From the NCBI GenBank assembly GCA_000004985.1, contig GG738847.1: DNA of 64,000 bases, one strand, 5' to 3'. Source of the DNA: Naegleria gruberi (Eukaryota). This document shows positions 1,125-63,128 of the stretch, piece after piece. Within the stretch, counting starts at the first letter, position 1. Each line of letters opens with the position of its first letter. The notes under the pieces are model-generated. The model was not told the DNA's origin, did not search any database, and was given only the letters and a program-made list of their open reading frames with translations. The position numbers and the translations under genes were made by a program.

Positions 1125-1577
1125 TTAAAATCTTTCTTCCAAATATTCTCTTTCAGCTCTGGATGGAGAATAAGTGAAAATATCCTCATTTGGTATTGAT
1201 TTCTTGGTTGTTTTTGATAACTTTTCAATACGTTTTTTGATATCAGGTTTTTCTCTTCTTAAAATTACTAAACTTTGAATTGGATGAGAGAGTAAAATAT
1301 TTGTCATGAATGATAACAAATTTTGGTCCATTTGTCCAATAATATTTTCAGTAAAACTTCTTGGATTTAATTTAACAGAAATTGTATTCTTGTCATTATC
1401 ATTAATTGTTGTAGTAGTTAATTCTTCATAATTTTTAGGACCAATAATTGACCGTATTGTATCTGTATTAAATAATAAAATAATTTTTGTGGCATTACTG
1501 GCTTGATGTTTTCGGGATGAATAAATTACATTCCACACAAATTTAAAAATGTTGATAAATGATTGAATTAAAGTCAT
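1125..1577 (-). CDS. hypothetical 150-aa protein
   Basis: A 453-nt stop-free ORF in AT-rich DNA is very unlikely by chance. A true ATG sits at 1577 in an aaaaaaaATG context. No family recognised. Codon usage is more AT-biased than its neighbours. Confidence 0.6.
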   Translation of the reverse strand: MTLIQSFINIFKFVWNVIYSSRKHQASNATKIILLFNTDTIRSIIGPKNYEELTTTTINDNDKNTISVKLNPRSFTENIIGQMDQNLLSFMTNILLSHPIQSLVILRREKPDIKKRIEKLSKTTKKSIPNEDIFTYSPSRAEREYLEERF

Positions 1578-1582
1578 TTTTT

Positions 1583-4500
1583 TTATTGTTTCTTGAGATC
1601 ACTCTTAATCTTGTCAACAAGGGCTGCCATGGCATCTTCTCCTGAACCAACTGCTGAGATCTTAGCACCTAGACCTTTTGCTGGTTGTTTCTTCTTTTTT
1701 GCTTGTTCTCTCTTTATCTTGTCTAATGACCTCTTAATAATTTCATTAAATAAAAACATGGATCCAAAGAAGTCTTTTGTGTCAACTTTTGCAATATCCT
1801 TATCCTTGAATGAAAGATATTTAAGTAAACTAGTAAAGTTTGTCTTGAATTGTTCAAATCTCTTTTCAATAGTATCACATTCTTGTTTGGCTTTCTTGAA
1901 GAAGGAAGACATTTTCTTTAAAAAGATATCTTCAGCTTCCACTTTTCCTTGAACAGTTTTGATCTTCTTCTTAAAGTCATTCAGATTGTTGACAAGAGAT
2001 TCAACTTGATTTTTCATATCATCCAACGAAAATTCTTTAGACCTAGAAAAAACTTCGAATTCTGTTGTTATTTCTTCAAACTCTGCATCTTTTGGAAGAA
2101 CTTTTTGAACACAAAAATCTGCAAGGTTTCCTTTTGCGTTATCCTTTGTGTCTTCGAGCTTTGATAAGATATCTAATTGAAAACCTTCTGCTTGACCTTT
2201 CTTTGTGCCACCGTTTAAATAGTTACCAACAGCTAGAACAATACCTAAAATGTTCTTGAAATGAGTTGATTCTTTTAGAATTTTAACAGAATTTTCAAAT
2301 GTTTCTAATGGTTTTCCAACAATAAGCAACCCTGTTTCAAATTGTAAAGTATACGTCCAACATCTAATTCTTGTAGCAAATTCTGGTGTGTTAATAATAC
2401 AATACAAATACAACTCTGGATCGGAATATTCCTTCAAGTCTTTTGTTTTGTGAACTTCCTTGAATCCATTGATGGTATCAGCATCAGGCATATTTCCTAG
2501 TAATAATTCTACGTGTTCATAATTTAAAATTGTGCTGTCCAAGTTTAAAACACCTTGCTCAATATGAGAAACTTTTGGCAGTTTTTTCAACATGATAGAG
2601 ATGTTATTAAATGTCTTTTGATCCAACAATGGGACTGATTTTGGTTCTTCCTTTTTTTCTTTCTTTTCTGGAGCTTTTCTTTCCTTCTTTGAAAACATTT
2701 CTTCAAATTCATCAGCATCCAATTCCTGTTCTACCACATTTGTCCAAATTGTATTTTGACTTATGAGGTTAGTTTCCTTATTATTTCACTACTTACATTG
2801 TTGTTGCCTTATCCCATGAAAACATTTTCATCTTTTTCTTTGGCTTAATAACTGGTTTGACAGATGTTGCAGCAGCAGCTCCACATGAAGGGAATCCAGG
2901 TACTTGAGGTACACCAAATCCTGGTGGCATTGGCATTCCACCCATTCCTGGAGGAGGAACAGGCACACCAAATCCAGGAGGCATTGGAACACCCATACCA
3001 GGAGGAGGAGGGACGCCACCCATACCAGGAGGCATTGGAATTCCTGAACTAGGAGGAGGTGGTACACCAACCATACCAGGAGGCATTGGGATAGTAGATC
3101 CAGGAGGAGGAGGAACACTACCCATTATAGGAGGAGGAGGAACACCCATACCAGGAGGCATTGGAATTGAGCTACCAGGAGGAGGAGGAACACCAAAACC
3201 AGGAGGCACTGGAATTACCGATCCTGGTGGAGGAGACATTACTCATTCCTGGAGGCATAGGGATAGTAGATCCAGGAGGAGGAGGAACAGAGCTCATACC
3301 AGGAGGCATTGGTATCGAGCTACCAGGTGGAGGAACACCACCAAAACCGGGTGGGGGAGGTATTACTGAACCAGAAGGAGGAGGAACACCACCAAAACCA
3401 GGAGGCATTGGAATTCCCGATCCTGGTGGAGGAGGAACATTACTCATTCCTGGAGGCATAGGGATATCAGATACTGGTGGAGGAGGAACATTACCGACAG
3501 GTGGAGGAACAGATGTTGGCGGTACTGGAATAGTTGGATTTGACACAGGAGGGACTGATGTTGAAGGAGTTAGAGTTGTCGGTGGAGTATTGTTACTTGA
3601 CTGTGAGACTTGGTCGGCCAACTTTTCTGCATTTTGAATTTGCTGCTCGATTTCCTTCTGAAGATTCAAGTTATTGCTGGTGGCCTCTTTCAAGAGTCTA
3701 TTTGCGTTAGCCACTTCTTTTTTGAGGTTTTCGAGTTGCCTTGTTGCATAGTCAGCTTCTGCAAAACTTCTTGTTCTTTCATTATCTAATTCTAAAGAAA
3801 GTTCATCAATCTTTCTCTTTAAAACTTCAATTTCTTCATCTCTTGGGTCATCTTCTGGAGGCAGAGGCAATTCATCCTCTGAATCACTAGCAAAAAGCTC
3901 ATCAATTTCATCTTTCTTCACTTCTGGTTGTGGAATAATGTCCGCAAAGTTTGGATCCTTTAAAAATTGTTTGGCTAGCTCCTTTCTTGCTTGTTGAAGC
4001 AATTGAAATTGTTCAGTTAATTCAAGATTCTTTCTTTGGAACCTGCTAAGATCAATTACTTTATCTGGGGAGAATTCTAAAACAGCATCAGTATCAAGTC
4101 TTTGAGAAGTACACATTCTATCAGTAAATCCACATTTCATTGAAAAAATGTTTACAGTCTCGTAGCATTTTTGAAGCTCTTGTTTGAGAACTCTAATTGT
4201 GGATTGCTGTCTTTGGAATGCAAATAGTTTTTCTTGTGTTTGTTCATATTTACAAGAAACCTTGTCTAATTCAATCTTCATTTTCTCGCAAACATACCAT
4301 GATCTTGGTATTTCAATCTTCGAGATCTTTTGGAAGATTGATAATTGTTCTTTAACACCAGGAAATTCTGACCTATTGGCAAAATCCAATGTACTTTCCA
4401 GGTCAGCCTTTCTCCACATGAAGAGTAATTTTCTCTTCTTGTCCTCTGAAGACTTTGAAAGTATAACGTTAAGTAATGTCAAGCAATTTACTTGAACAAG

Positions 4501-4992
4501 CAAATCTCCACTCTTCAAAATATCCATTATGTTTTGGAAAGGTTGTTGTTTGCATTTAGTTGCAAGATCTTTTGCTGATCTTTTCACTAATTTAATACCA
4601 TTATCCAAATAACTACAGAAAACAATCATCAATTCTAAAGCATTTTTGTAAATCTGAACATTTTGATATCCACTTGAGGTATCAGTCAAGTTATAAATTT
4701 CTGAAACAGTAGAAGGAGATTGAGAAATTACATCCATGGCAGATACGTAAACTAGGGCACTTCTCAATGCGGCTAAACCATAACCTTGGAGGTTACCTTT
4801 CAGATGTGTAACTTCTTTTGCTAAAATGGCAATACCATTCATAGAAATAAATTCTTCAGAAAAAGTGGTATCTTGCAATGTTTCCTTCAATTGAAACAAT
4901 ATTTTACCCTTTTCAACTCTATCATCCGAGTCAAGAATATTGATATAGTCCCTAGATTTTAATTCAGGTCTTAGTTTTAAATAAGCAGACAT
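1583..4992 (-). CDS. diaphanous-type formin (GBD/FH3 - coiled coil - FH1 - FH2), gene model with one 37-nt intron and a frame discontinuity inside FH1
   Basis: N-terminal ORF 3172..4992 begins MSAYLK and carries armadillo-like GBD/FH3, a coiled coil and an FH1 with tandem (P)PPGMGGVPPPP repeats. ORF 2793..3239 continues FH1 in another frame and ends KKKMKMFSWDKATTM, the start of FH2. A GTAAGT...CTAAC..AAG intron at 2760..2796 splices in frame onto ORF 1583..2737: ...KATT|IQNTIWTNVVEQELDADEFEEMF... with GNYLNGG, a typical FH2 motif. Exons are roughly 1583..2759 and 2797..4992, with a frame shift near 3172-3239. Confidence 0.8.
2880..3560. repeat. tandem DNA repeats encoding FH1 poly-proline units (about 48-nt period, ccaggaggcattgg...ggaggaggaacacc...)
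   Basis: Near-identical units are visible by eye. The reverse-strand Gly-rich antisense ORFs in the track (3161..3637, 2864..3052) are artefacts of this repeat. Confidence 0.8.
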
Positions 4993-5035
4993 TTTCTACA
5001 ACAATAAATCACTAGGCTAACAATTAAAAACAAAC

Positions 5036-5260
5036 CTCTTTTCCCTTAAAAAAGTTCTTACTAAGAGTACTATCGCTAAAATAATATGTTCCGGTACTAG
5101 GATTATCAAATTGTAAAGAAAATTTATCCCTCTTAACGTTTTGTATTTCAAACAATCCACACACATTGTAAAATTGAGCTTGAAATTCAGCCTTATCATC
5201 AAATTGATAAGACTTTTCAATTTTCTTTAAACCATCCTCGAACACAACTGCCAGTTCAAT
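5036..5260 (-). CDS. candidate 5' exon of the formin gene (or an independent small ORF), 75 codons
   Basis: ORF 5024..5278 looks protein-like (MIELAVVFEDGLKKIEKSYQFDD...). It ends ...KGKE followed by GTTTGT; 40 nt later comes TAG|AAAATGTCT, which joins in frame to the formin MSAYLK ORF. Putative intron at 4996..5035. Confidence 0.35.
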
Positions 5261-5898
5261 CATGTTTAATATCCACAAAGCAGGTTTTTAATATTTTTTT
5301 TAAATGATAAAAATTAAGGTCGCACTCACTTTGTGCACCAGCTGTAATGGAGAGACATTGCCTCTTCTCACAAGAAAAAAGGCTTTTCGAAAATTGGTTT
5401 TTTACTTGGAGGAGGAGCTTGAGGTGCATTTGGACTGTTGATAGCTCCAAATGCGGTGATAAAAACACAGATAGCATCTTTCTCAGAAATAATAGCACAT
5501 AATGGGTTCGTCTTGATGCCCTTCCTTATTATCAGTAAAGACGATCTTCTAATATTGTCTTGCTTTCTAAAGAAGCATTGAGTATGCTGTGTGCCTGCTC
5601 CTTTCTTCTTGTTGACTTTCTTCTGTTTTACTCCATTAAATGAGTGAAAATACCAATTGAACTCAATAAATCATTCAATGAATGCTTCCTCATTCATTGA
5701 GTGTAAACGGATGAGATACGTTCTGTCAGTGTCTGAATGTGATAGAGGTGATTTTCTTTCAAAGAAATAATTGTGTTCACAAAAATAAATTTCAGATTAC
5801 AAAATAATAAAGTAAGATTAGTAAGATTAAAAAAGAGTCTTAATTGAACCAGAATTGAAAAACTAAAAAACTTTTTAAAATAAATTAATTTAAAAAAA

Positions 5899-7784: not shown

Positions 7785-9065
7785 TTATTTCTTCAATTGT
7801 TCAAGTCTTTGAATTTCTTCCAAGTTTCTCTTTAGTTCATTCTTCAACTGTTCTCTGAGTGGTTCAATACATGATTCTACCAGACAAACCATACTGGCAT
7901 TGAAAAGGCCAGAATTATAGGCTGTTGTAAACATATCATTTGGATCACAATTTGATTTAGCCTTTTCAAATTCCTCAGTTTCCTCCTCTGTAATTAACTG
8001 TTGTATTTGAATTATTCTTTCCATAGAACGCTTAGGATAAGAACCATTCTCGATGACTTCTATTGGAACATCCATGGCAATTGTTCCTTCAGCCATATTT
8101 AAAACATCTAGATCAGAAATATCCATACTGTTATTTCCTCGTCTCAGATCCTCAATAAGCTTGATACTTTGTTCATCAATTCCAGCCTGTTGAGATTGAA
8201 ATGCATATAATTTAATACTTCCAGTACTCGATTTGTCATTATTAAATACAGAGAAAATTAATCCAACAAATCCACTATCCATTTGTTGATATTGAGATTG
8301 GCAACTCAAATCTATTGGACTATTAAAGATTAATCACTATTTTAACATTAATAATACAAACCTTGGTAAATGAATGAATTGTGGATGAGAGTGATACCAT
8401 CCAATAACTCTAGTGGGTATTCCATCTTCAGTGCTCAATTTTTCAGCCATTGAAGCTGCATTTACCAATTGTTCTGGAGAAATTTCAACTCTATCTCTTC
8501 TCTTATCCACTCTCCTCAGTGGACAACAATCCCATATTGTTGAAACTCCAGTACTTTCATTAATATATCCTATCAAAAGTCCCATAATTTCCTCTTCACT
8601 TGTTGTCAATGCATGAGTTAAACAGGAATGATAACAGTCCTTAGTAATCCGAACCATCCTCAACGAAGGTTGATTACTTTTGTGTTGATTAACATTAAAG
8701 TGACTATTAATCGTTAAATTAGGTGATGGAGTTGATAATGATCGTGGTGTCTTTACTCCAGTATTTACATTGGAAACAGATAGAGTTTCATGTGGTGTTG
8801 ATGATCCTCCACTTTGAATATTACCAGAAACTGATGATAATTGTTGTTGTATTGTATTGCTACTATTATTATTAATATTATCAGTATTCATCAATCCATT
8901 CGTCGTTGGTGTTGATCGTTCCGAACTTAATGGTTGTTGCTGTTGTTGTTGTATTTGTTGCTGGGAGGAAGATGATTGTTGAGTTAATCCTCCATTATTA
9001 GCATTAATAGCCTCCAAAACTTCATAGGGATTGTAATTTACATTGGGAGAAGTAGAATTGGACAT
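7785..9065 (-). CDS. BRCC36-like MPN+/JAMM Lys63 deubiquitinase, two exons (8362..9065 and 7785..8319) with a 42-nt GTTTGT...TAG intron
   Basis: Exon 1 carries the JAMM motif (..EISPEQL..VIGWYHSHPQFI). After splicing, the protein continues ..HLPSPIDLSCQSQYQQMDSGFVGLIFSVF, which closely matches human BRCC36 (..TQAMYQMMDQGFVGLIFSCF). I checked the reading phases. Confidence 0.85.
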
Positions 9066-44295: not shown

Positions 44296-47200
44296 TTATT
44301 GTTGATCTTGTTGCATGGATGGTGGTTGATAGACTTCATCTTGTTGCAATAACAATTCGTCGTCTTCATCTGATTCACTTTCTTCACCATCTTCGAGAAC
44401 TTGAATTTCACTTTCTTGTTGGAAGACATAGTCACCAGGCTTCTTTCTTTCACTCTTCAATTTCTTCAACTTTCTCTTACCCTTTCTAATGTAAACTCTA
44501 GTGAGAGTCTTGATTCTTTCGACAGCTTGTGGATCTCTCATAACCAAACCAACGAATGATAATACCAAGAAAATGATAGTGATAGCAATCAAGATAATTG
44601 GTGAAATATAGTAGGCCTTATAGGAGAAACCATAATTTTCCAAAGCAGTAGCAACATTTTGATTACTTTCTTGATACTTTCTAATTTCAACAGTGTACAT
44701 TAATTCGACAGCCCATCTCACTGGAGAAGAACAAACCAAAACCAATGTATACCATTCCTTAGACATGGTACGAACTGTTGGTTGAACACCACCCAACAAG
44801 GCACACAAAATAATGTACATTACACCAACAAATTCAGCATGAGTTCTTTGAACGAAAACTGAAATGAAATAGCCAAGAGAACTGAAAACAATTTCGAATA
44901 ATAAGAAGAGTCCATAGTATGTGTAAAATTCAGCTTCAGGATTAACGAGGATATACCAGAAAGTAACAAAGACCAATGGATAGATCAACAAGGAAGGAAT
45001 TTCACCAGTCAATTTACCAAGGAAGTAACTCATCTTGTTGATACCATTCTGAGCTTCACGTCTATAGAGTTCCTTATCAGCACCAAAACATTTGAGTGAA
45101 GATTGCATAGCAGCAATGGCAAGAGCAGAAACTGTAACAATACTCATTGGTGCAATCTTATCAATTCTTGGCAATGAACATTGATTACTAATAAATGTTG
45201 GACACAACTTTTGAAGAGTTGATGAAAGAGGACCAATAAAGTCCATGTTAAAGTAGAAACCTCCAATAATTACAGCAAGAGCAAAGTGGAAGAAGAAATC
45301 AAAGAAGACACCCTTGTAGTGACGACTCAATTGAAGCAAAGCACGAAGAGAGAATAAGAGATATTGACCCAAGAACGCAATTGGCTTTCTTTGTCTTTCC
45401 TTAGCAACTTCACTGCCCAACAAAACTTGTTGTGGATCAATAACAGAAGCACCAACTTCTTCATCATCTTCTTGTTCTTGTTCTGATTGTTGAGTTTCAT
45501 TACCATTTCTTGATTTGAGCCATTTCTTTTCATTTTCTTCCTTCTTCAAGTCCCACAAGTGCAACAAACGTTCTGGTTCAAAGTTTGGATCACCAGGTCT
45601 TTCAACATTACCCAAACAAACATCAACAAAAAAGTCTGGAGGATTTTCATAGTTTGGACATTTGAAGCCAATTTCTTCAAAGAATCTCAAAGCATCCTTG
45701 GTTGGACCATTGTAAACAATGCCACCATTCTTACCCATGATAATACAATCGTCAAAGAGGAGGAATACATCATTTCTTGGTCTGAGCATGGTAGAAACAA
45801 CTGTAGTACCACTTTCAGCAGCCAACTTGAAGGCCTTACACAAGAATTTCTTTCTTTCGAGTGGAATTTCATCGAATGGATTATCGACAAATAAACAAAC
45901 TGGATCAGCAACCATTTCAAGAGCCATGTTAACAAAGACTCTGAGTTCTTCATCGAGACCGTGCTTCTTTGATTTACCAATTGTATCATACATAAAGTTT
46001 TCAATACCCAAAACCTTACATGTCTTTTCAACACGTCTACCAACTTGACTGTATGTATAATAACTTGGCAAACGAGAGTGACCAGCAAATCTCAACAATT
46101 CGTGAACCTTCAATTCCTTAGCCATATCAAGTTGCTTTGGGGCAAAGCTGATAATATTTCTGAATTCGTGCGGATCCTTAATTTGTTCATTAATCATAAT
46201 TTTACCATGAACGAAACCCAAGTGATGTCTACCAGAAAGAGTATTGAGCAATGCAGAAGTTGCTTCAGAATCAACACCAATAATACATGTAGTTCTTCCG
46301 TGATAGACACGACCAGTGACACCTTCGAAAATAACTTCTTCACTCTTCTTTCTGATATATGACAAATCCTCAAAGGCATAATCAATTGTAAAGTTCTTCT
46401 TTGAGAATGGTGGTTCATTGACGAGAGAACCAGTACTATCATAATTGAATTGTTCATTTCCTTGAATAAAGTTGGCAATATTAATACCAATGTTGGCAAG
46501 ACCATTTTGTCCTGAGATTTCTTGGTCTTGTTTAATCTTCTTTTGCTTCATCTTCTTCTTCTTGTAAGAGGCAGTGACACATCTGACAACAACGAAAGTG
46601 ACCAAAACGAGGAAGACAACAACGAACATTAACAAGATACCCAAATAGAAGGATTGTTGCTTGGCAGAACCTTCTGGACAATAGGAGAACCATTGACAAC
46701 GTTTAGGATAAGTAGAGCCAGCAGCACAGTGATAACCAGATGGACACAACAACATTGAGTTGGTATTAGGGCAATAATAACCAGCAGTACAAGCAAGTGG
46801 TTCCTTAGTACCTCTTGGGCAATAATAACCATCTTCACACAAGACTTTGCTTGACAAGGTTGGACAATAGTAACCTTCTGGACAATAGTGCTCATCACTA
46901 CCATAAGTACCAGTTGGACAGTATTGAGTTCTGTTACCAATTTGTTCCAAACATGGAGTTGGAGTCATAGAGTATGGAGTTTCACAATAGTTCAATGCAG
47001 GACAAGCATTTACGAGAGTAGTGCCTGTAGTGTCAAGTCCTTGAGTAGCTAATGGACAATATTGACCATTTCTACAAGTGTATAATTGACTTCTAGTTTT
47101 TCTTGCAAGATAACCTGGTGGTACTGGAATAGACATCAAAGGGTTCAAACAAATTTGACCATCAGGACATCTTTGCTCAGTAGAGGAACCTTCAATTCCA

Positions 47201-49403
47201 CAAGTTGTTTCAAATGTTGAGGAAGGTGAACAAGCAGTAGGTGCAGTCATGGCCGAATCTTTACATTTGAATCCAACAGGACAAGGTCTTCTACGACCTT
47301 CGTTATTGGTTGGACAGTAAAATCCTGGTTCACATTTAAAGACCATTGTTGGTCTAATTGTGTGATAACCAGCAGAAATAGAAACAGTATTGGCGTAACC
47401 TTCAGCAAGAGTTTTCCAGAATCACCATATCTTGGACAAGTCCAACCTCCATTACACATTGAGAAGTAACCAATAAAATCGAATGCAGTATACTTGGTTG
47501 GATATTTCTTACAAGCTTCAGTAAATTTAGTCAATGAAGATGGAGGATTTGAAGAAGCCAACAAGGTGCAAATATCTTGCAATCTTATTCTGGCATCAAT
47601 ATCAAAGGCCTTTCTAGAAAGGACAGCAAAGATGTGTTGTGCATTTTCAGAAACATAAATGTCATTAATTTTACCATCACTGTTCAATAATGCAGTTTGT
47701 TGCAATGTAAATAAGCTTGAACTAGAAGTGGAAGCAGAAGTGTCAGTACAAGCATACTCTTGGAAGGAAAATACTTCAATACTTTCTCTTGTGGCAATGT
47801 TGATGGTGTGATAAAATGTTGAATAGGCATCAGTGATAGCAGTGTCACTTGTTTTGTACATTCCAATAACCATCTTTGAAGGAACAGCTGATGTGGTTTT
47901 CAAATCTGATTCCTTATTAGGTCTGTTAGTACAGGTTCCACTCTTTGAGTATTGAGGTTTGGTAGTTGATGTATAAGAAGTTGAGCATGTTGTGTCAGCT
48001 GGTATACCAACGGCCTTGTATATGCCAGCTGGGTCAGAACTAATATCAGTTACATCCTGACTTGCCATTTCTGGAAGGTTAAAGACAAATAATCTTGGGC
48101 CGAAAGCATTTGCAGAGGCTGTAGTTGAAGCAACACCAACAGCAACCCAAACAGATTGGGAAGTCTTAGCAAGAGTACCATAACATTCAGTAAATGCACT
48201 CACAGAATAAATACTTTCACCAGAGACACCATGTGTATAAATGATTGAGGTCTTCTTTGTTAAGTCAACAGGTGAGTCATTTGGCGTACCAACGAGTTGA
48301 ATCAAATTGACTTGTGACTTGGATTGAATTAAAAGAAGAGGTCTACTGGCTTTAACTGAATTACAGTCAACCTTTGATGAATATGTTGGGTCAGCACCAA
48401 ATTGTCCATGAGCAAAACCGAAAATCTTTCTTTCCTCAGTTTGGTCAGCAAATGCCCATTTATAAAGTGTAGAACCCTTGTAAATGATAATACCATTGGT
48501 AGAAGTAGAAGTACCATATGAGAGAACAGCCATATGAGTTGCAGTTCCAAGAGTATCAATGTAGGCAATTGTTTGCAAATCTTGCACAAATTCGCTTGAG
48601 GACAATTTGGTTGTTGTATCAATGGTAAGAGCAATAGTTTTAGAAGATGAAACTGTGAGAGTACCAGTAGTATCCAATTTAAGAACCAATAATGTTTGAG
48701 TTGACAAGGTAACATAAATTGTTGCCTCAGTAGAGCTAGTTCTATAGACAGCCATCTTACTTGGTTTATCTGTTAAAGCAGTTTTAGCATCAAGTACTTG
48801 ATAAGAGTAGGCCAATTGTTCAGTAGTCATATCAAGAACAAGCAAATGTCTATTGGTCAATACTAGTAAATATTGTTTGGCACCATCAGCTGACATTTCC
48901 AAAGGTTTAGCAGCTCTAACAAAGAAACAACGATTGTTTTCGGATTGTGATGATTGATCAGTAGTGGTAACATTTCCTCCAGAATAGTCTTCCTTATAAA
49001 TTTTAACAATATTATCAACATCTTGATCTTTCACACAAATCATGTTATTTTCAGTTGATGTAATTGGTGTCTTGTCTGTTATTTTGGTATATAAACATTG
49101 TGCACCAGTGGCATCACAATTAAAAATGTCAGGATCTCTAAAAGTGATTGGTTGACTTGCTCTAAAGTTATTATATGTACACCATGATGGTCTTGAAGTG
49201 GATAAAGATGGATCACATAATCCAAAGGCTGATTTAACTTGTTCACCAGATAATGCAGCACACCAGTCTGGAGGTGTGGCAGCAAGAGTTGAAGCACAAC
49301 TCAAAGTAATCATCAACAAGATGGAGACGATTAAATATCGAACAGCAACACGTTGTTGTGCTTGTCCTTTCAACAATGGTCTATTATCATTACGTATCAT
49401 CAT
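44296..49403 (-). CDS. giant secreted/type I membrane protein: large extracellular domain plus Cys-rich GYYCP/EGF-like repeats plus a degenerate ABCG-type module, with an apparent 1-nt frameshift at 47412-47415
   Basis: ORF 47247..49403 has a signal peptide (..LLMITLSCASTLAATP) and a 700-aa Thr/Ser-rich ectodomain. ORF 44296..47346 continues in a different frame with CxxC/GYYCP repeats, a TM helix followed by KKKKMKQKK, an ABC NBD with degenerate Walker A (IIGVDSEATSALLNTLSGR), degenerate signature and Walker B (LFVDNPFDEIP), and a six-helix ABCG-type TMD. The two frames would fuse if the run GGAAAAC (minus strand) had one more A. Confidence 0.7.
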
Positions 49404-58914: not shown

Positions 58915-59013
58915 TTTTTTTGAAATTGAAGTGAACTTTTCCAAATACATTACAACACTGAGATTTTCAAAATAGTTTAATATCATTTAAGAAAATTAAC
59001 ATTTATTTACAAA

Positions 59014-62000
59014 TTAAAGTTCAGAATCATCATCACCAATCTTTTTCCTCACTGTTGACTTCTTTAACGAGACACCACCACCAAGAATGTTTGTACCAGC
59101 TTTTGGATCGTCCTTCTTGGCAGTTGATGCTGTGAGACGACTTGTTGTACTTGCATTTTTGAGATCTTGTTTAAGTTTTTCCTTCTTAAGCTTTTCTTCT
59201 TCTGCCTTCTTTTTCTTTTCGTCGGCCTTTTGTTGTTGAATATTCTTGTCGGCAGCTTGTTTAAATTGTTGAACAAAGGCATCAATCATTTGGAAGAATT
59301 TGTCTGGTTCTTTCATAAGATCGTCCTTAGTTTCATTGTACAATTCTGCGAGCTCTGTTAATTGATTCTTCATAGCTTCCATATCTTCCTTGATCTTGTT
59401 AATGGTATTGTCAACCTTCTCACAGAATGGTTGCATTTTTTCAACAAATTTGTCTCCATCAAGTTGTTCTTCAATGGCTTCTCTAATTTGAGTTTGTAAA
59501 ATGTTTTGTCCTTTTTTAAGTTCTTCCAAATCATCTTCCAAAGAGGAAATGTTCACTCTGGTGGCAGCTTGAACGTGTTCTAATTCTGTATCAAAACCAG
59601 CAACTTCTGGTTCGTTGTCTTGGACAAACTTGACAATATATTGGAGGAGAGAACTCTTACCGTCACCAGTCTTAGTATCATTCAACTTGGCAAGTGATTT
59701 GAGTTTAAAACCATAACTGATCTTATTCTTTTGTTTACCATTCAAAAAGTTACCAATTGTAAGAATAATACCCAACAATCTGATGAAATTCTTAGAGTTT
59801 TGCATTTCTTTACAGGCTAATGTAAGATTTTGAATATCAGGTCTAATTTTACCACTGATATCAGGGAATTTAAATTTAAATTCCCACGCATCAAGTCTTC
59901 CTTTGAGATTTGGAATTCCATCCATGACTTTGAAGAATTTATCAGGTTCTGCTAATTCATCCATTGGTCCATCATATGTATTGACAGTATCAATTTCTTC
60001 TCTCTCAGGAGCAATTTGCTTAATTGTACCAACATTATCAGAAGTAACAACAGCTTCATCGAGAGCAATAATAGCTTTCTTCAATGATTCATAACTTGTA
60101 CCTCTCAATGAACCTAATTGAAGGGAAACAGCATAACTACGTTTTGCATCCAACATTGATTTAACTTCCTTCTTCTTTTCTGTTGGCTTAACTTCTTTGT
60201 TTGGATCTTCCTTTTTCTTTGTAGAGAAACATGATGTCAAATGATCCAAATCTATTTCCTCAATAATGGAATTTGTCTTATTTGCAATACCTTTTGTCAT
60301 AAATACGGTATTGGTAAGTGTTGTCTTATTAATTTGGTCAAAGTGAACATTTCTGGTTGCTTCTTTTGGAGCTCTATCTGGAAGAACAGGTAATCCACCA
60401 CCAACAGCAGCACCTCTTCCAAAACCTCCTGGAACCATTGGTACACCTCTTCCAAAACCTGGTGGCATAGGAACACCCATACCAGGTGGCATTGGTACAC
60501 CTCCCATTCCTGGAGGCATTGGAACACCACCACCAGGAGGAGGAGGCACACCACCCATACCAGGAGGAGGAGGCACGCCTCCCATACCAGGTGGAGGATT
60601 GGAACACCTCCCATTCCTGGAGGCATTGGAATACCTGATCCTAAAGGAGGAGGAACACCGCCCATACCAGGTGGAGGAGGAACACCAAAACCTGGAGGAG
60701 GAGGAATACCACTATCCATTCCTGGAGGCATTGGAATACCTGATCCTGGAGGTGGTGGAATACCACCAAAACCTGGAGGAGGAGGAACAAATCCCATATC
60801 ACCACCAGGTGGAGGAGGAACAAATCCTGAGCCACCAGGAGGTGGAGGAACAAATCCAGTAGATCCAGGAGGTGGAGGCACGCCAAAATCACCACCAGGA
60901 GGTGGAGGCACAAATCCTGAGCTACCAGGTGGAAGTGGTACTGAACCACCAGGTGGAGGAGGAACGAATCCTGTCGAACCAGGTGGAGGAGGAACAGATC
61001 CAGTACTAGCTACTGTGCTAGTTGGAGGTACCTTAATAGGATTACTTTTGATAGATGAAATTTCTTTTTCGATGGCCGCAATAGTCTCCTTTAGCTTGGT
61101 TTCGTTTTCTTGATGCTTTTTGAGATCTGCTTGTAACTTTTCAATCTTTGATTTTCCTTCCTTTTCAACCTTTTCGGTTTCGTCTGTCACCTCCTTAACT
61201 TGATTTTTAACATCATCGTCTTGATCGCTTGAGTCTAATTTCTTTGTCCAAGTTTCCTTTTCCTCATGGAGCTTAATTTTTGATGCCACAGATTCAGAAA
61301 GTTCCTTACTGATTGTCTCTATTTCAACCTTCAGGTCTTCAATCTTCTTCTTGTTATCTTCACATTCTTTTTGAATATTTTGTTTCTCCGATTCGAGTTT
61401 TTGAACAAGTTCATTAATAATTTGCTCATTTTGTTGTCTTTCGTACTCAATTTTGTGTAACTTTTCATTCTGTTCTTGTTTAAATTTGTATTGAGAGTCT
61501 TCTAAATCAATAATTTGACTTTGGTTCAATCTGACTTGTTCTTCCAACTTGATTTCCAAATTAGTCCAATATTCTACATTTCCTGTTTCTCTGGACTGCT
61601 TTAAACTTCTCTTAACAAGTGCTAACATATTTTTCCAAGCTTCAAGAACGGTTTCTCTGTCCAAATCTCCATCTTTCATCTTTAAAACAATGTTAAGTAA
61701 TCTTTGAAGGATGTTAAGCATACTGGTCATGGATGCTTCGTTTAACATCAAGTTCAAAAGTTTTACAATTTCAGTTGGGTCACTTAAATCTTTAAGGACA
61801 GCGTGAGCATCTCCAAGATCACTGATTTTGTCTTCGAATCTTTCAATTTCTTTACTCAGATCCATTAATGTTTCTTCATTTTCATTACCTCCATAAGAAT
61901 TGGCAAGTTCATTCTTCAATTCATCTACTAACTCAACCATACCTAAATTTCTCATTTCCTTCTTGATGAGAGATTTACTACCTTCATCAGGTGCATTTGT

Positions 62001-62969
62001 CAAAATTGCATTCACTAAAATCATGACAGCCAATTTGTAATCCAAATCTCTTGTTTCTTGAACTCTTTGAACAATATCAAAGAATCTTCTCTTTTCTCTT
62101 TTAACCAATTTATAGTGATTAAAAGCATTCATAACAAGGGAGAAACCTTGATATGACCATCCACAAAGTAATGCTAATATTCTCAGACATTGACTTGCTG
62201 TGTTAACATTGTAAGTATCAAGAATTAAAGCCAAATTTTTAACAGCTTCAGTTTCGGATAAAAATTCATCTGCACCGATATTGGTATGTACAAGTGCACG
62301 TAAAGAGCTCACACACAAAGCTTGTTTTTGCAATTCTTCTTGATCACGTTTCTTTCCCAATACATTTGTCAATGCTAAACATTCTCCCAAAGCTCTAATA
62401 CCTCTTTCCATAATAAATTGGTTGACCCAACGTGTTGGAGCTGTTCTAATAAGAACATGAATAGTTTCCAAAATTTGTAAATCATAACCTCTTTGTTCCC
62501 ATAAGGCTAACATTTCACCAACACCTTGTTCAGTTGTTTCTTGGTCATCAATATCACGTTTGTTTTGTTTATATCTTTTCAATTCTCTAAATTTTGAAAT
62601 GAGTGGCTTGTTAGCAGATTCGTACTCTCTAACTTCTTCCGAAACACCAATATCAATCAACATTTCAATAAATTGTTCATTGATATCATCAGGAGAAATA
62701 TTGGAAGGAATTTCAGAGTGATGATCTAATGTTGAATCACCAGAATGATCCGTAAATGTACTAGCTGCTGTTGTATAACTTGTTGAGTCATCACCAAGAG
62801 TTGCCGTGTTGATACTCTGTTCTACTCTCTTCTTGTATTCATCCTTCTTCTTCTTTCTGTCCTTTTTGATTTTTTTTTTCAATTGATCTTTTACAGTTTT
62901 GGCGGTTTGATTGTTTTGATTTTCAATACTGTTTGTATCCACAGAAGAACCTATTAGTTTCTTTAACAT
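59014..62969 (-). CDS. diaphanous-type formin (GBD/FH3 - coiled coil - FH1 - FH2 - basic DAD-like tail) with a frame discontinuity inside the FH1 repeats near 60590-60600
   Basis: ORF 60297..62969 has GBD/FH3 armadillo, a long coiled coil, FH1 (..GFVPPPPGG.. and GIPMPPGMGGVP..) and ends in frame-garbled sequence. ORF 59014..60585 begins MGGVPPPPGMGG.. and carries a complete FH2 (..LLGIILTIGNFLNGK..) plus a Lys-rich C-terminus. The two ORFs overlap in different frames. Confidence 0.8.
60390..61010. repeat. tandem DNA repeats encoding FH1 poly-proline units (second formin)
   Basis: Same ccaggtggaggaggaacacc...cataccagg unit family as at 2880..3560. The antisense Gly/Glu-rich track ORFs (60599..60862, 60641..60949) are artefacts. 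Confidence 0.8.
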
Positions 62970-63128
62970 TTTGAAATTGGAAACCGAATGTTATTAGTCC
63001 TTCTACTAGCACAGTGATGTTATTGTTTTTTTTTAAAATAGTAGGATGACAGGTTAATTTATTTTTTGTGATGACAGATGAGGGATGATGATTGATTTCC
63101 AAGTTCTAAAAACATTAAGGACTAACAA

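What the first reader, a model, noticed from the sequence alone, without database searches (positions are those of the whole stretch)
3172..3239. Both formin paralogs carry a frame break inside their FH1 tandem repeats, at homologous repeat positions
In formin 1 the ggaggaGGAacacc element reads ggaggag-acatt, an apparent 2-nt loss. In formin 2 at about 60590 it reads ggaggaTTggaacacc, an apparent 2-nt gain. In each gene the upstream and downstream ORFs overlap in different frames and both sides encode good FH1/FH2 sequence. No GT..AG intron of the local size class fits. Two independent lesions at the same element of a 48-nt repeat suggest repeat-collapse or polishing artefacts. Real slippage mutations or pseudogenisation of both diaphanous-type formins would be biologically important.
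Basis: seen in the sequence. Interest (0 to 1): 0.5.

Follow-up and report, generated by a model that had tools for sequence, protein, structure and literature searches.

The report
Frame breaks in two Naegleria formins
Two known formin genes in the draft Naegleria gruberi genome each carry a 1-2 base reading-frame break in their proline-rich repeat, and these are most likely small sequence errors (or very recent strain-specific lesions), not dead genes or new biology.

Summary
Both minus-strand formins change reading frame inside FH1, at window 3235/3236 and 60597-60600, and no AT-rich intron lies at either site.

The window is Naegleria gruberi NEG-M scaffold_3:512001-576000, from a Sanger draft. 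The genes are already catalogued as Naegr1 (JGI 62347; GenBank EFC49750.1) and Naegr14 (JGI 78061).

GenBank bridges the formin-1 break with a 34-nt, 50% GC "intron" (3242->3209). An independent Illumina metagenome contig from a near-identical Naegleria (0.43% SNPs outside FH1) covers that site. It has the two missing bases (GT-TC-CTCC) and one continuous ORF, and it lacks both the GT and the AG of that "intron". Every other indel between the two sequences is a multiple of 3.

Orthologues read through FH1 in one frame: N. fowleri and N. lovaniensis for formin 1, N. fowleri and Willaertia for formin 2. The FH2 halves downstream of the breaks are under strong purifying selection.

A third frame break sits at an A4 run in an unrelated transporter gene (47412-47415), so 3 of about 40 genes are broken.

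Best reading (about 0.6): draft-consensus indel errors. Main rival (about 0.27): real, very recent, possibly heterozygous frameshift alleles. Real introns and ribosomal frameshifting are unlikely. Interest is low.

The parts
1583..5263 (-). Formin 1 gene. It is Naegr1 (JGI protein 62347) of Grunt et al. 2008 and GenBank EFC49750.1 / XP_002682494.1 / UniProt D2V0M6. The architecture is FHOD-type FH3, coiled coil, FH1, FH2 and a conserved C-terminal tail.
   Evidence: - ATG at 5263 and stop at 1583.
- These coordinates equal scaffold_3:513583-517263.
- Pfam domains.
- Orthologues N. fowleri FDP41_007891 and N. lovaniensis C9374_006952 are about 77% identical, with conserved synteny.
- An exact protein match to GenBank was obtained when a 34-nt interval is removed.
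4996..5035 (-). Canonical intron A of formin 1: 40 nt, GTTTGT..TAG, GC 0.28.
   Evidence: An intron lies at the homologous position in N. fowleri (48 nt).
2760..2796 (-). Canonical intron B of formin 1: 37 nt, GTAAGT..ACTAAC..AAG, GC 0.30.
   Evidence: The homologous N. fowleri intron is 47 nt.
2870..3560 (-). FH1 proline-rich repeat array of formin 1, with units of 24/48/51 nt.
3172..3242 (-). Zone where the upstream and downstream reading frames of formin 1 overlap. The break itself is at 3235/3236: GT^CTCCTCC, where the paralogous unit and the related contig read GTTCCTCCTCC.
3209..3242 (-). The 34-nt GT..AG interval (GTAATGTCTCCTCCACCAGGATCGGTAATTCCAG, GC 0.50) that the GenBank model removes as an intron to bridge the break. 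It is judged spurious.
   Evidence: - The exact look-up matched EFC49750.1 only with this interval removed.
- In contig L004 the same stretch is in frame and codes for ..SSVPPPPGSVIPM...
- L004 has GC in place of the GT and AA in place of the AG.
- The nine canonical introns in the window are 37-59 nt with GC 0.17-0.30.
59014..62969 (-). Formin 2 gene. It is Naegr14 (JGI protein 78061). It is intronless, with architecture Drf_GBD, FH3, coiled coil, FH1, FH2.
   Evidence: -.
- scaffold_3:570989-575016 equals window 58989-63016.
- Orthologues: N. fowleri FDP41_007923, W. magna ABK040_007833 and A. kona formin-F.
- The N. fowleri locus aligns in a single frame through FH1.
60400..61020 (-). FH1 proline-rich repeat array of formin 2, with units of 24/27/30/51/54 nt.
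60597..60600 (-). Frame-break point of formin 2. The coding strand reads GGTGTTCCAATCCTCCACC. It is repaired either by adding G after 60598 (..GVPMPPPG..) or by removing AA at 60599-60600 (..GVPPPPG..). The zone where the two frames overlap is 60297-60711.

Best explanation
Both formins are ordinary, functional, full-length genes. The 1-2 nt frame breaks are most likely errors in the consensus of the unfinished Sanger draft of N. gruberi NEG-M.

The likely mechanism is inferred, not shown. FH1 arrays are runs of (CCT/CCA)n whose length varies in 3-nt steps within this species. In a heterozygous diploid assembled into one consensus, a 3-nt length difference inside such a run can be gapped inconsistently between reads. 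Compressions in the G-rich strand can be miscalled as well. Either leaves 1 or 2 of the 3 bases in the consensus.

Gene modellers then bridged the resulting break with a false 34-nt intron. That step is shown for formin 1.
For: Shown:
1. The window is the NEG-M assembly, which is a Sanger assembly. Naegleria is described as mainly a heterozygous diploid.
2. An independent Illumina metagenome contig (L004; ENA ERZ929261, run ERR1078381, k127_278847) differs from the window by 12 SNPs in about 2770 nt outside FH1.
   - At the formin-1 break it carries exactly the two bases needed (TC).
   - It reads as one continuous ORF, PMPPGMSSVPPPPGSVIPMPPGFG.
3. All other indels between L004 and the window are in frame: 3 nt at 3287 and 21 nt at 3075. 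This shows that FH1 length is polymorphic in 3n steps.
4. Orthologous genes are not interrupted in FH1.
   - Formin 1: N. fowleri (1129 aa) and N. lovaniensis (1205 aa).
   - Formin 2: N. fowleri aligns in one frame through FH1, and W. magna is a single 1301-aa protein.
5. Sequence downstream of the breaks is constrained as strongly as sequence upstream.
   - Formin 1 against N. fowleri: pN 0.215 downstream and 0.22 upstream, with pS 0.77-0.84.
   - Formin 2 against N. fowleri: pN 0.119 downstream and 0.186 upstream, with pS 0.72-0.73.
   - Between NEG-M and L004 the FH2 exon has 5 synonymous and 1 non-synonymous change.
6. A single repair at each site gives a stop-free ORF of 1201 aa for formin 1 and 1317-1318 aa for formin 2.
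7. A third non-intron frame break lies at an A4 run (47412-47415) in an unrelated signal-peptide / Cys-repeat / ABC transporter gene.
   - Adding one A gives a 1702-aa ORF.
   - That makes 3 broken genes out of roughly 40 in 64 kb. This rate fits draft error better than real gene loss.
8. Other heterolobosean assemblies show the same kind of damage in the same genes.
   - The W. magna formin-1 orthologue is split inside FH1.
   - A. kona formin-F has an out-of-frame stretch inside FH1.
   - N. fowleri FDP41_007923 changes frame inside the GNFLNG motif of FH2, and the model bridges it.
Against: - No read-level data from NEG-M itself could be examined. L004 is a different genotype, so it shows what the intact sequence looks like but not what NEG-M truly carries.
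- The formin-1 break lies inside a 33-nt patch with 6 SNPs relative to L004. The patch looks like a gene-conversion tract from the neighbouring repeat unit. That is a real biological difference, and an imperfect conversion could truly have removed 2 nt.
- Sanger reads at the nominal coverage usually give an accurate consensus.
- No independent sequence was found for the formin-2 site.
Confidence: 0.6

Rival explanations
1. The frameshifts are real, very recent, NEG-M-specific alleles, possibly heterozygous. They would have arisen by imperfect gene conversion or template switching between diverged FH1 repeat units in a long-cultured axenic lab strain. The affected alleles would encode truncated proteins with a GBD/FH3 region and part of FH1 but no FH2.
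For: - The formin-1 break sits inside a cluster of 6 SNPs in 33 nt that matches the paralogous unit about 200 nt upstream, as expected of a conversion tract.
- The formin-2 junction looks like a hybrid of two unit types, GGTGGAGGA|GGAACACC and GGTGGC|ATTGGTACACC.
- FH1 arrays are demonstrably unstable in length.
- Two of the three frame breaks in the window fall in about 1.3 kb of FH1.
- An intact downstream ORF is compatible with a lesion only decades old.
Against: - Slippage or unequal exchange between units of 3n length should give 3n changes, as seen at 3287 and 3075.
- Three broken, otherwise perfectly conserved genes among about 40 would imply an implausibly high load if real.
- The third break is a classic homopolymer miscount.
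- Comparable FH1 and FH2 breaks appear in three other species' assemblies of the same genes, which points to a technical cause.
Confidence: 0.27
2. The breaks are spanned by real, unusually short, GC-rich spliceosomal introns. For formin 1 this would be the annotated 34-nt GTAATG..CCAG interval, possibly a new intron made from coding sequence. The mRNA would then be in frame.
For: - A GT..AG interval of the right length class exists (3242->3209, 34 nt, length 3n+1), and it is the one used in GenBank EFC49750.1.
- Its AG, created by the base at 3209, is specific to NEG-M relative to L004. L004 also has GC in place of its GT.
Against: - The nine canonical introns in the window are 37-59 nt with GC 0.17-0.30 and GTAAGT, GTTTGT or GTACGT donors. 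All candidates at both breaks have GC 0.46-0.65 and weak donors.
- In L004 the homologous stretch lacks both GT and AG, is in frame, and encodes a standard FH1 unit.
- N. fowleri has introns only at the two canonical positions.
- Many GT..AG pairs of the right phase occur by chance: 25 of 120 nt or less at formin 1.
- The two formin-2 guesses tested, with 56-nt and 29-nt intervals removed, are not in the protein collection.
Confidence: 0.05
3. Programmed ribosomal frameshifting joins the two frames. Formin 1 would need +1 and formin 2 would need -1.
For: Only that both halves are intact and conserved.
Against: - The two genes need opposite shifts.
- No X_XXY_YYZ slippery heptamer lies in the formin-2 overlap zone.
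- No stop-adjacent or rare-codon +1 motif lies at the formin-1 break, where the upstream frame runs on for 21 nonsense codons.
- Close relatives and orthologues encode the protein in one frame.
Confidence: 0.01

Closest known systems
Naegr1 and Naegr14, two of the 15 N. gruberi formins catalogued by Grunt et al. 2008 (PMC2386819, Additional file 1). For Naegr1 the GenBank protein is EFC49750.1 / D2V0M6.
   Same: They are the same loci. scaffold_3:513583-517263 equals window 1583-5263, and scaffold_3:570989-575016 equals window 58989-63016. The GenBank protein equals the gene model derived here.
   Different: The published models treat each locus as one uninterrupted gene. The frame break is hidden, in formin 1 by a 34-nt pseudo-intron that deletes about 12 FH1 residues. 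The terms 'frameshift', 'sequencing error' and 'pseudogene' do not occur in that paper's main text, and 'frameshift' or 'frame shift' do not occur in its supplements.
Orthologous formins of other heteroloboseans. For formin 1: N. fowleri FDP41_007891 and N. lovaniensis C9374_006952. For formin 2: N. fowleri FDP41_007923, W. magna ABK040_007833 and A. kona formin-F.
   Same: - Same domain order.
- 62-82% identity for the Naegleria and Willaertia orthologues, and 52% for A. kona.
- Same flanking genes for formin 1 in N. fowleri.
- In N. fowleri both formins lie on one contig about 60 kb apart, as in the window.
   Different: Their FH1 regions read through in a single frame. The W. magna formin-1 orthologue and A. 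kona formin-F are exceptions: each has its own FH1 frame problem in its assembly or model.
Frame breaks in draft assemblies that gene models bridge with false introns, for example the FH2 of N. fowleri FDP41_007923.
   Same: A 1-2 nt frame change sits inside conserved coding sequence, and the model skips it. The N. fowleri model drops the conserved NFLNGKQKNKISYGFKLKSLAKLNDTKT segment.
   Different: That case is in a different assembly and lies in FH2, not FH1. The window's cases are in a Sanger draft.
Unitary pseudogenes.
   Same: A frameshift interrupts the ORF.
   Different: There is only one lesion per gene. There are no stops or further indels in 1.6-1.9 kb downstream, and pN/pS stays low.

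Membership tests
Formin (FH2-domain actin nucleator) | An FH2 domain | tested here: met
   Pfam PF02181 matches at E=1e-62 for formin 1 and E=2e-80 for formin 2.
Formin (FH2-domain actin nucleator) | A proline-rich FH1 directly upstream of FH2 in the same polypeptide | tested here: inconclusive
   The FH1 arrays are present. In the assembly as written, FH1 is split between two frames. It is continuous after a 1-2 nt repair and in the related contig L004.
Diaphanous-related formin (DRF) | An N-terminal GTPase-binding domain plus an FH3/DID | tested here: met
   This applies to formin 2 only: Drf_GBD E=3e-19 and Drf_FH3 E=1.3e-11. Formin 1 matches only the FHOD-type FH3 and ELMO_ARM profiles, with no GBD hit.
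Diaphanous-related formin (DRF) | A C-terminal autoregulatory DAD motif | not tested
   A conserved C-terminal GEDAMAALVDKIKSDLK segment is seen in formin 1 and its orthologues. No DAD profile or structure test was run.
Spliceosomal intron of the local class | GT..AG ends, 37-59 nt, AT-rich (GC 0.30 or less), GTAAGT / GTTTGT / GTACGT donor | tested here: not met
   All phase-correct candidates at both breaks have GC 0.46-0.65 and non-consensus donors. The annotated one is 34 nt with GC 0.50.
Spliceosomal intron of the local class | Splice sites or intron position conserved in close relatives | tested here: not met
   L004 has GC..AA at the annotated sites and reads through in frame. N. fowleri has no FH1 intron.
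Programmed ribosomal frameshift site | A slippery sequence (X_XXY_YYZ for -1, or a shift-prone codon with a stop or rare codon for +1) at the frame junction | tested here: not met
   No heptamer lies in the formin-2 overlap zone, and no +1 motif lies at the formin-1 junction. The two genes also need opposite shifts.
Pseudogene | Relaxed constraint, or further disabling mutations downstream of the first lesion | tested here: not met
   There are no further stops or indels. Downstream pN is no higher than upstream pN while pS is saturated. NEG-M and L004 differ by 5 synonymous and 1 non-synonymous change in FH2.
Assembly or consensus artefact | The base count at the site disagrees with the underlying reads of the same strain | not testable with these tools
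   No NEG-M reads or independent NEG-M assembly are reachable. Exact look-ups of the broken ORFs found no second occurrence. Only a 0.43%-diverged relative could be compared.

The most novel reading that the evidence does not exclude
Strain NEG-M really carries the 2-nt deletion in formin 1 and rescues it by splicing out the 34-nt GTAATG..CCAG interval. This would be a brand-new intron made from FH1 coding sequence. Relative to the sister lineage L004, NEG-M has GT where L004 has GC, and its AG acceptor was created by the change at 3209. A parallel event would be needed in formin 2.
Probability: 0.04. Interest if true: 0.6.

Novelty: not a real feature. Interest (0 to 1): 0.12.

Why it matters
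The practical value is mainly curation.
- The reference protein for N. gruberi formin Naegr1 (EFC49750.1 / D2V0M6) lacks about 12 FH1 residues because a false intron hides a frame break.
- Formin Naegr14 and a large ABC-type transporter in the same window have similar hidden breaks.
One pangenome study reports 599 genes 'absent' in N. gruberi.

If the lesions were instead real, the standard lab strain would carry null alleles of two formins. That would bear on formin-inhibitor and motility work done in this strain.

Tried and rejected
- **Canonical introns.** I enumerated every GT/GC..AG interval of the right phase at both breaks and compared them with nine bona fide introns in the window. None fits.
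- **Ribosomal frameshifting.** A scan for slippery sites found none, and the two genes need opposite directions.
- **Old pseudogenes.** Rejected by codon-level comparison with N. fowleri and with L004.
- **Repeat collapse.** The units are only 60-89% alike and the lesions are 1-2 nt.
- **Independent sequence for the formin-2 break.** Nothing was found by any route:
  - exact look-ups of both broken ORFs and of two neighbouring ORFs;
  - a scan of JGI metagenome contigs;
  - exact look-up of two guessed formin-2 GenBank models, with 56-nt and 29-nt bridges.
- **Word-indexed protein searches.** Searches missed even the 82%-identical N. fowleri orthologue. The likely reason is that proline-rich and lysine/glutamate-rich words filled the candidate list. 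Their silence about N. gruberi models is therefore not evidence of absence. The full HMMER scan found the orthologues.
- **Locus look-ups.** Look-ups by NCBI N. gruberi neighbour proteins failed.
- **Literature.** Supplements of Velle & Fritz-Laylin 2020 are not held. No paper mentions PRJEB11402.
Full report
**What the window is.** Five intronless ORFs in the window are exact matches to GenBank proteins of Naegleria gruberi strain NEG-M, on a 941,567-bp scaffold. Additional file 1 of Grunt et al. 2008 lists two N. gruberi formins on scaffold_3. Naegr1 (JGI 62347) is at 513583-517263 and Naegr14 (JGI 78061) is at 570989-575016. The first interval is exactly as long as the formin-1 gene derived here (window 1583-5263). 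That places the window at scaffold_3:512001-576000 and puts Naegr14 over formin 2. The NEG-M assembly was made by Sanger sequencing, and Naegleria is described as mainly a heterozygous diploid. The window is gene-dense, about 33% GC, and holds roughly 40 genes.

**The observation.** Both genes lie on the minus strand.

Formin 1:
- It starts at ATG 5263 and has two canonical introns, 5035-4996 and 2796-2760. It ends at 1583.
- Inside FH1 the frame changes. ORF 3172-4995 and ORF 2793-3242 overlap by 71 nt in different frames.
- The + strand reads GGTGGAGGAGACATT where the closest paralogous unit reads GGTGGAGGAGGAACATT.
- Copy-to-copy spacings in the array are all multiples of 3 except 100 and 172 nt across this point.
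- Adding two bases at 3235/3236 gives one 1201-aa ORF.

Formin 2:
- It is intronless, running from 62969 to 59014. ORFs 60297-62990 and 59014-60711 overlap by 415 nt.
- Proline-rich sense switches frame at GGTGTTCCAATCCTCCACC, positions 60597-60600.
- Spacings are multiples of 3 except 56 and 80 nt across this point.
- Removing AA, or adding one G, gives an ORF of 1317 or 1318 aa.

Pfam confirms an FH3 domain, or GBD plus FH3, upstream and FH2 downstream in each gene. Some details need correcting. The FH2 domains are only 26% identical, so these are ancient paralogues. Only formin 2 shows the diaphanous GBD. The repeat periods are mixed.

**Are the breaks introns?** Nine clear introns in the window are 37-59 nt long, have GC 0.17-0.30, and use GTAAGT, GTTTGT or GTACGT donors. 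Every phase-correct GT/GC..AG interval at the two breaks has GC 0.46-0.65 and a weak donor.

I built candidate proteins with such intervals removed and looked them up by exact sequence. The one lacking 3242->3209 (34 nt, GTAATGTC..TTCCAG) is exactly GenBank EFC49750.1 / XP_002682494.1 / D2V0M6, 1189 aa. The public annotation therefore already 'solves' the formin-1 break with a 34-nt intron.

**Independent sequence across the formin-1 break.** The 90% cluster of EFC49750.1 also holds a 384-aa ENA protein that differs by one residue. Its contig is L004 (ENA ERZ929261, run ERR1078381, PRJEB11402, k127_278847, 3225 nt). L004 is colinear with window ~3314 down to ~116.
- Outside FH1 it differs from the window by 12 SNPs in about 2770 nt, or 0.43%. 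It is a different but very closely related genotype.
- At the break it reads GGAATGAGCTCTGTTCCTCCTCCTCCTGGATCGGTAATTCCAATG, against the window's GGAATGAGTAATGT--CTCCTCCACCAGGATCGGTAATTCCAGTG. It has exactly the two bases that restore the frame.
- Its translation runs without interruption through peptides that NEG-M encodes in two different frames: PMPPGMSSVPPPPPGSTIPMPPGMSSVPPPPGSVIPMPPGFGVPPPPGSS....
- The stretch homologous to the annotated intron starts with GC and ends with AA in L004, so both splice sites are missing.
- The other indels between the two sequences are 3 nt and 21 nt, both in frame.

This rules out a conserved intron and an old pseudogene. It also shows directly that FH1 length is polymorphic in 3n steps in this lineage.

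**Orthologues and constraint.**
- Formin 1 has syntenic orthologues in N. fowleri (FDP41_007891, 1129 aa) and N. lovaniensis (C9374_006952, 1205 aa). These are single proteins with continuous FH1. In N. fowleri the only two introns sit at the canonical positions.
- Formin 2 has orthologues in N. fowleri (FDP41_007923), W. magna (ABK040_007833, 1301 aa) and A. kona (formin-F).
- The N. fowleri formin-2 locus aligns to the repaired N. gruberi protein in one frame from residue 35 to 1075, straight through FH1.
- In N. fowleri the two formins lie about 60 kb apart on one contig, as in the window.
- Against N. fowleri, synonymous sites are saturated (pS 0.72-0.84), while pN is 0.22 upstream and 0.215 downstream for formin 1, and 0.186 and 0.119 for formin 2.
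- Between NEG-M and L004 the FH2 exon has five synonymous changes and one non-synonymous change.

Any real frameshift must therefore be extremely recent.

**Context in the same window and in other assemblies.** A third frame break with no intron lies at an A4 run (47412-47415).
- The gene encodes a signal peptide, a large extracellular region, CxxGxxC repeats that continue across the break, and an ABC-2 transporter membrane domain near its C-terminus.
- Adding one A gives a 1702-aa ORF.

That makes three of about 40 genes broken, each by a single small indel and each otherwise intact. This rate is typical of an unfinished draft and implausible as real gene loss. Two of the three breaks fall in about 1.3 kb of FH1, so FH1 is a hot spot.

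The same genes are damaged in other species' assemblies:
- The W. magna formin-1 orthologue is annotated as two genes split inside FH1, with several frame changes.
- A. kona formin-F contains an out-of-frame run, IWRATTATTANGRRIW..., inside FH1.
- The N. fowleri FDP41_007923 locus changes frame inside the GNFLNG motif, and the model skips 28 conserved residues.

**Mechanism.** The breaks, the false intron and the in-frame state of the close relative and orthologues are shown. The cause is inferred. I favour a consensus error at (CCT)n runs. Heterozygous 3-nt length differences, of the kind seen between NEG-M and L004, can be gapped inconsistently among reads, and G-rich strands are prone to compression. 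Either can leave 1 or 2 of 3 bases in the consensus. Each observed sequence is in fact intermediate between two in-frame variants that both occur among neighbouring units:
- Formin 1: PPPP or PPP.
- Formin 2: GVPPPPG or GVPMPPPG.

**The main rival.** The formin-1 break sits inside a 33-nt patch with six SNPs relative to L004, and the patch matches the unit about 200 nt upstream. That is a real conversion-like difference, and an imperfect conversion could truly have deleted 2 nt. The formin-2 junction likewise looks like a hybrid of two unit types. Without NEG-M reads this cannot be excluded.

Ribosomal frameshifting is very unlikely. The two genes need opposite directions, and there are no slippery sites.

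**Comparison with what is known, and verdict.** The genes are known, the FH1-FH2 architecture is standard, and hidden frame breaks bridged by false introns are a familiar property of draft assemblies. The finding is best filed as not a real biological feature. It has modest curation value: EFC49750.1 lacks about 12 FH1 residues, and Naegr14 and the transporter need repair. My confidence is about 0.6 for artefact, 0.27 for real recent alleles, 0.05 for real short introns and 0.01 for recoding.

The most novel reading not excluded is that a true 2-nt deletion is rescued by a newly created 34-nt intron. Its probability is about 0.04, and it would be interesting if true.

Noticed in passing
window 47412-47415 (gene 44296-49403, minus strand): A third frame break with no intron lies at an A4 run. 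The gene encodes a signal peptide, a large extracellular region, CxxGxxC repeats and an ABC-2 transporter membrane domain. Adding one A gives a single 1702-aa ORF. The only GT..AG candidate is a 26-nt interval, GTGATT..GAAG.
   Followed up: partly
L002 about 8150-8260 (Willaertia magna, GCA_041937235.1): The W. magna orthologue of formin 1 is annotated as two genes, a 715-aa FH3 part and a 561-aa FH2 part. They are split inside FH1 by frame changes, for example ATTCCAATCCTCCAGG where neighbouring units read ATTCCAATGCCTCCAGG or ATACCAAATCCTCCAGG.
   Followed up: partly
L003 about 8133-8136 (N. fowleri ATCC 30863, VFQX01000004.1): The N. fowleri orthologue of formin 2 changes frame inside the conserved GNFLNG motif of FH2. 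The GenBank model FDP41_007923 skips 28 conserved residues. A second N. fowleri model (CAG4716402.1, 1303 aa) is longer.
   Followed up: partly
P0052 (Acrasis kona formin-F, KAL0489291.1), FH1 region: The model contains the run GGIWRATTATTANGRRIWRTPTTATTNGRRRIWRTTAATATNWEEEDLEDH between poly-proline tracts. This looks like proline codons read out of frame between two compensating frame changes.
   Followed up: no
window 3075, 3287 and 3209-3241, compared with L004: FH1 of formin 1 differs from the near-identical contig by in-frame indels of 21 nt and 3 nt. It also differs by a 33-nt cluster of 6 SNPs that matches a neighbouring repeat unit, which suggests gene conversion between units.
   Followed up: partly
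window 1125-1577 (minus strand): A 150-aa ORF with no Pfam match is squeezed between the formin-1 stop and the tRNA methyltransferase gene. ORFs are called at the same position in N. fowleri (164 aa), in L004 (150 aa), and possibly in W. magna. It is probably a real small gene.
   Followed up: no
window 59014-59080 (3' end of formin 2): N. gruberi formin 2 ends at ..KKIGDDDSEL. It lacks the conserved C-terminal ..LNAAFVKK / LNSAFVKATKK tail of the N. fowleri, W. magna and A. kona orthologues. The true 3' end may differ from the simple ORF.
   Followed up: no
searches compared: A note on method. The word-indexed protein search missed the 82%-identical N. fowleri orthologue of formin 2 and every N. 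gruberi model. The likely reason is that proline-rich and lysine/glutamate-rich words filled the candidate list. The full HMMER scan found the orthologues.
   Followed up: yes
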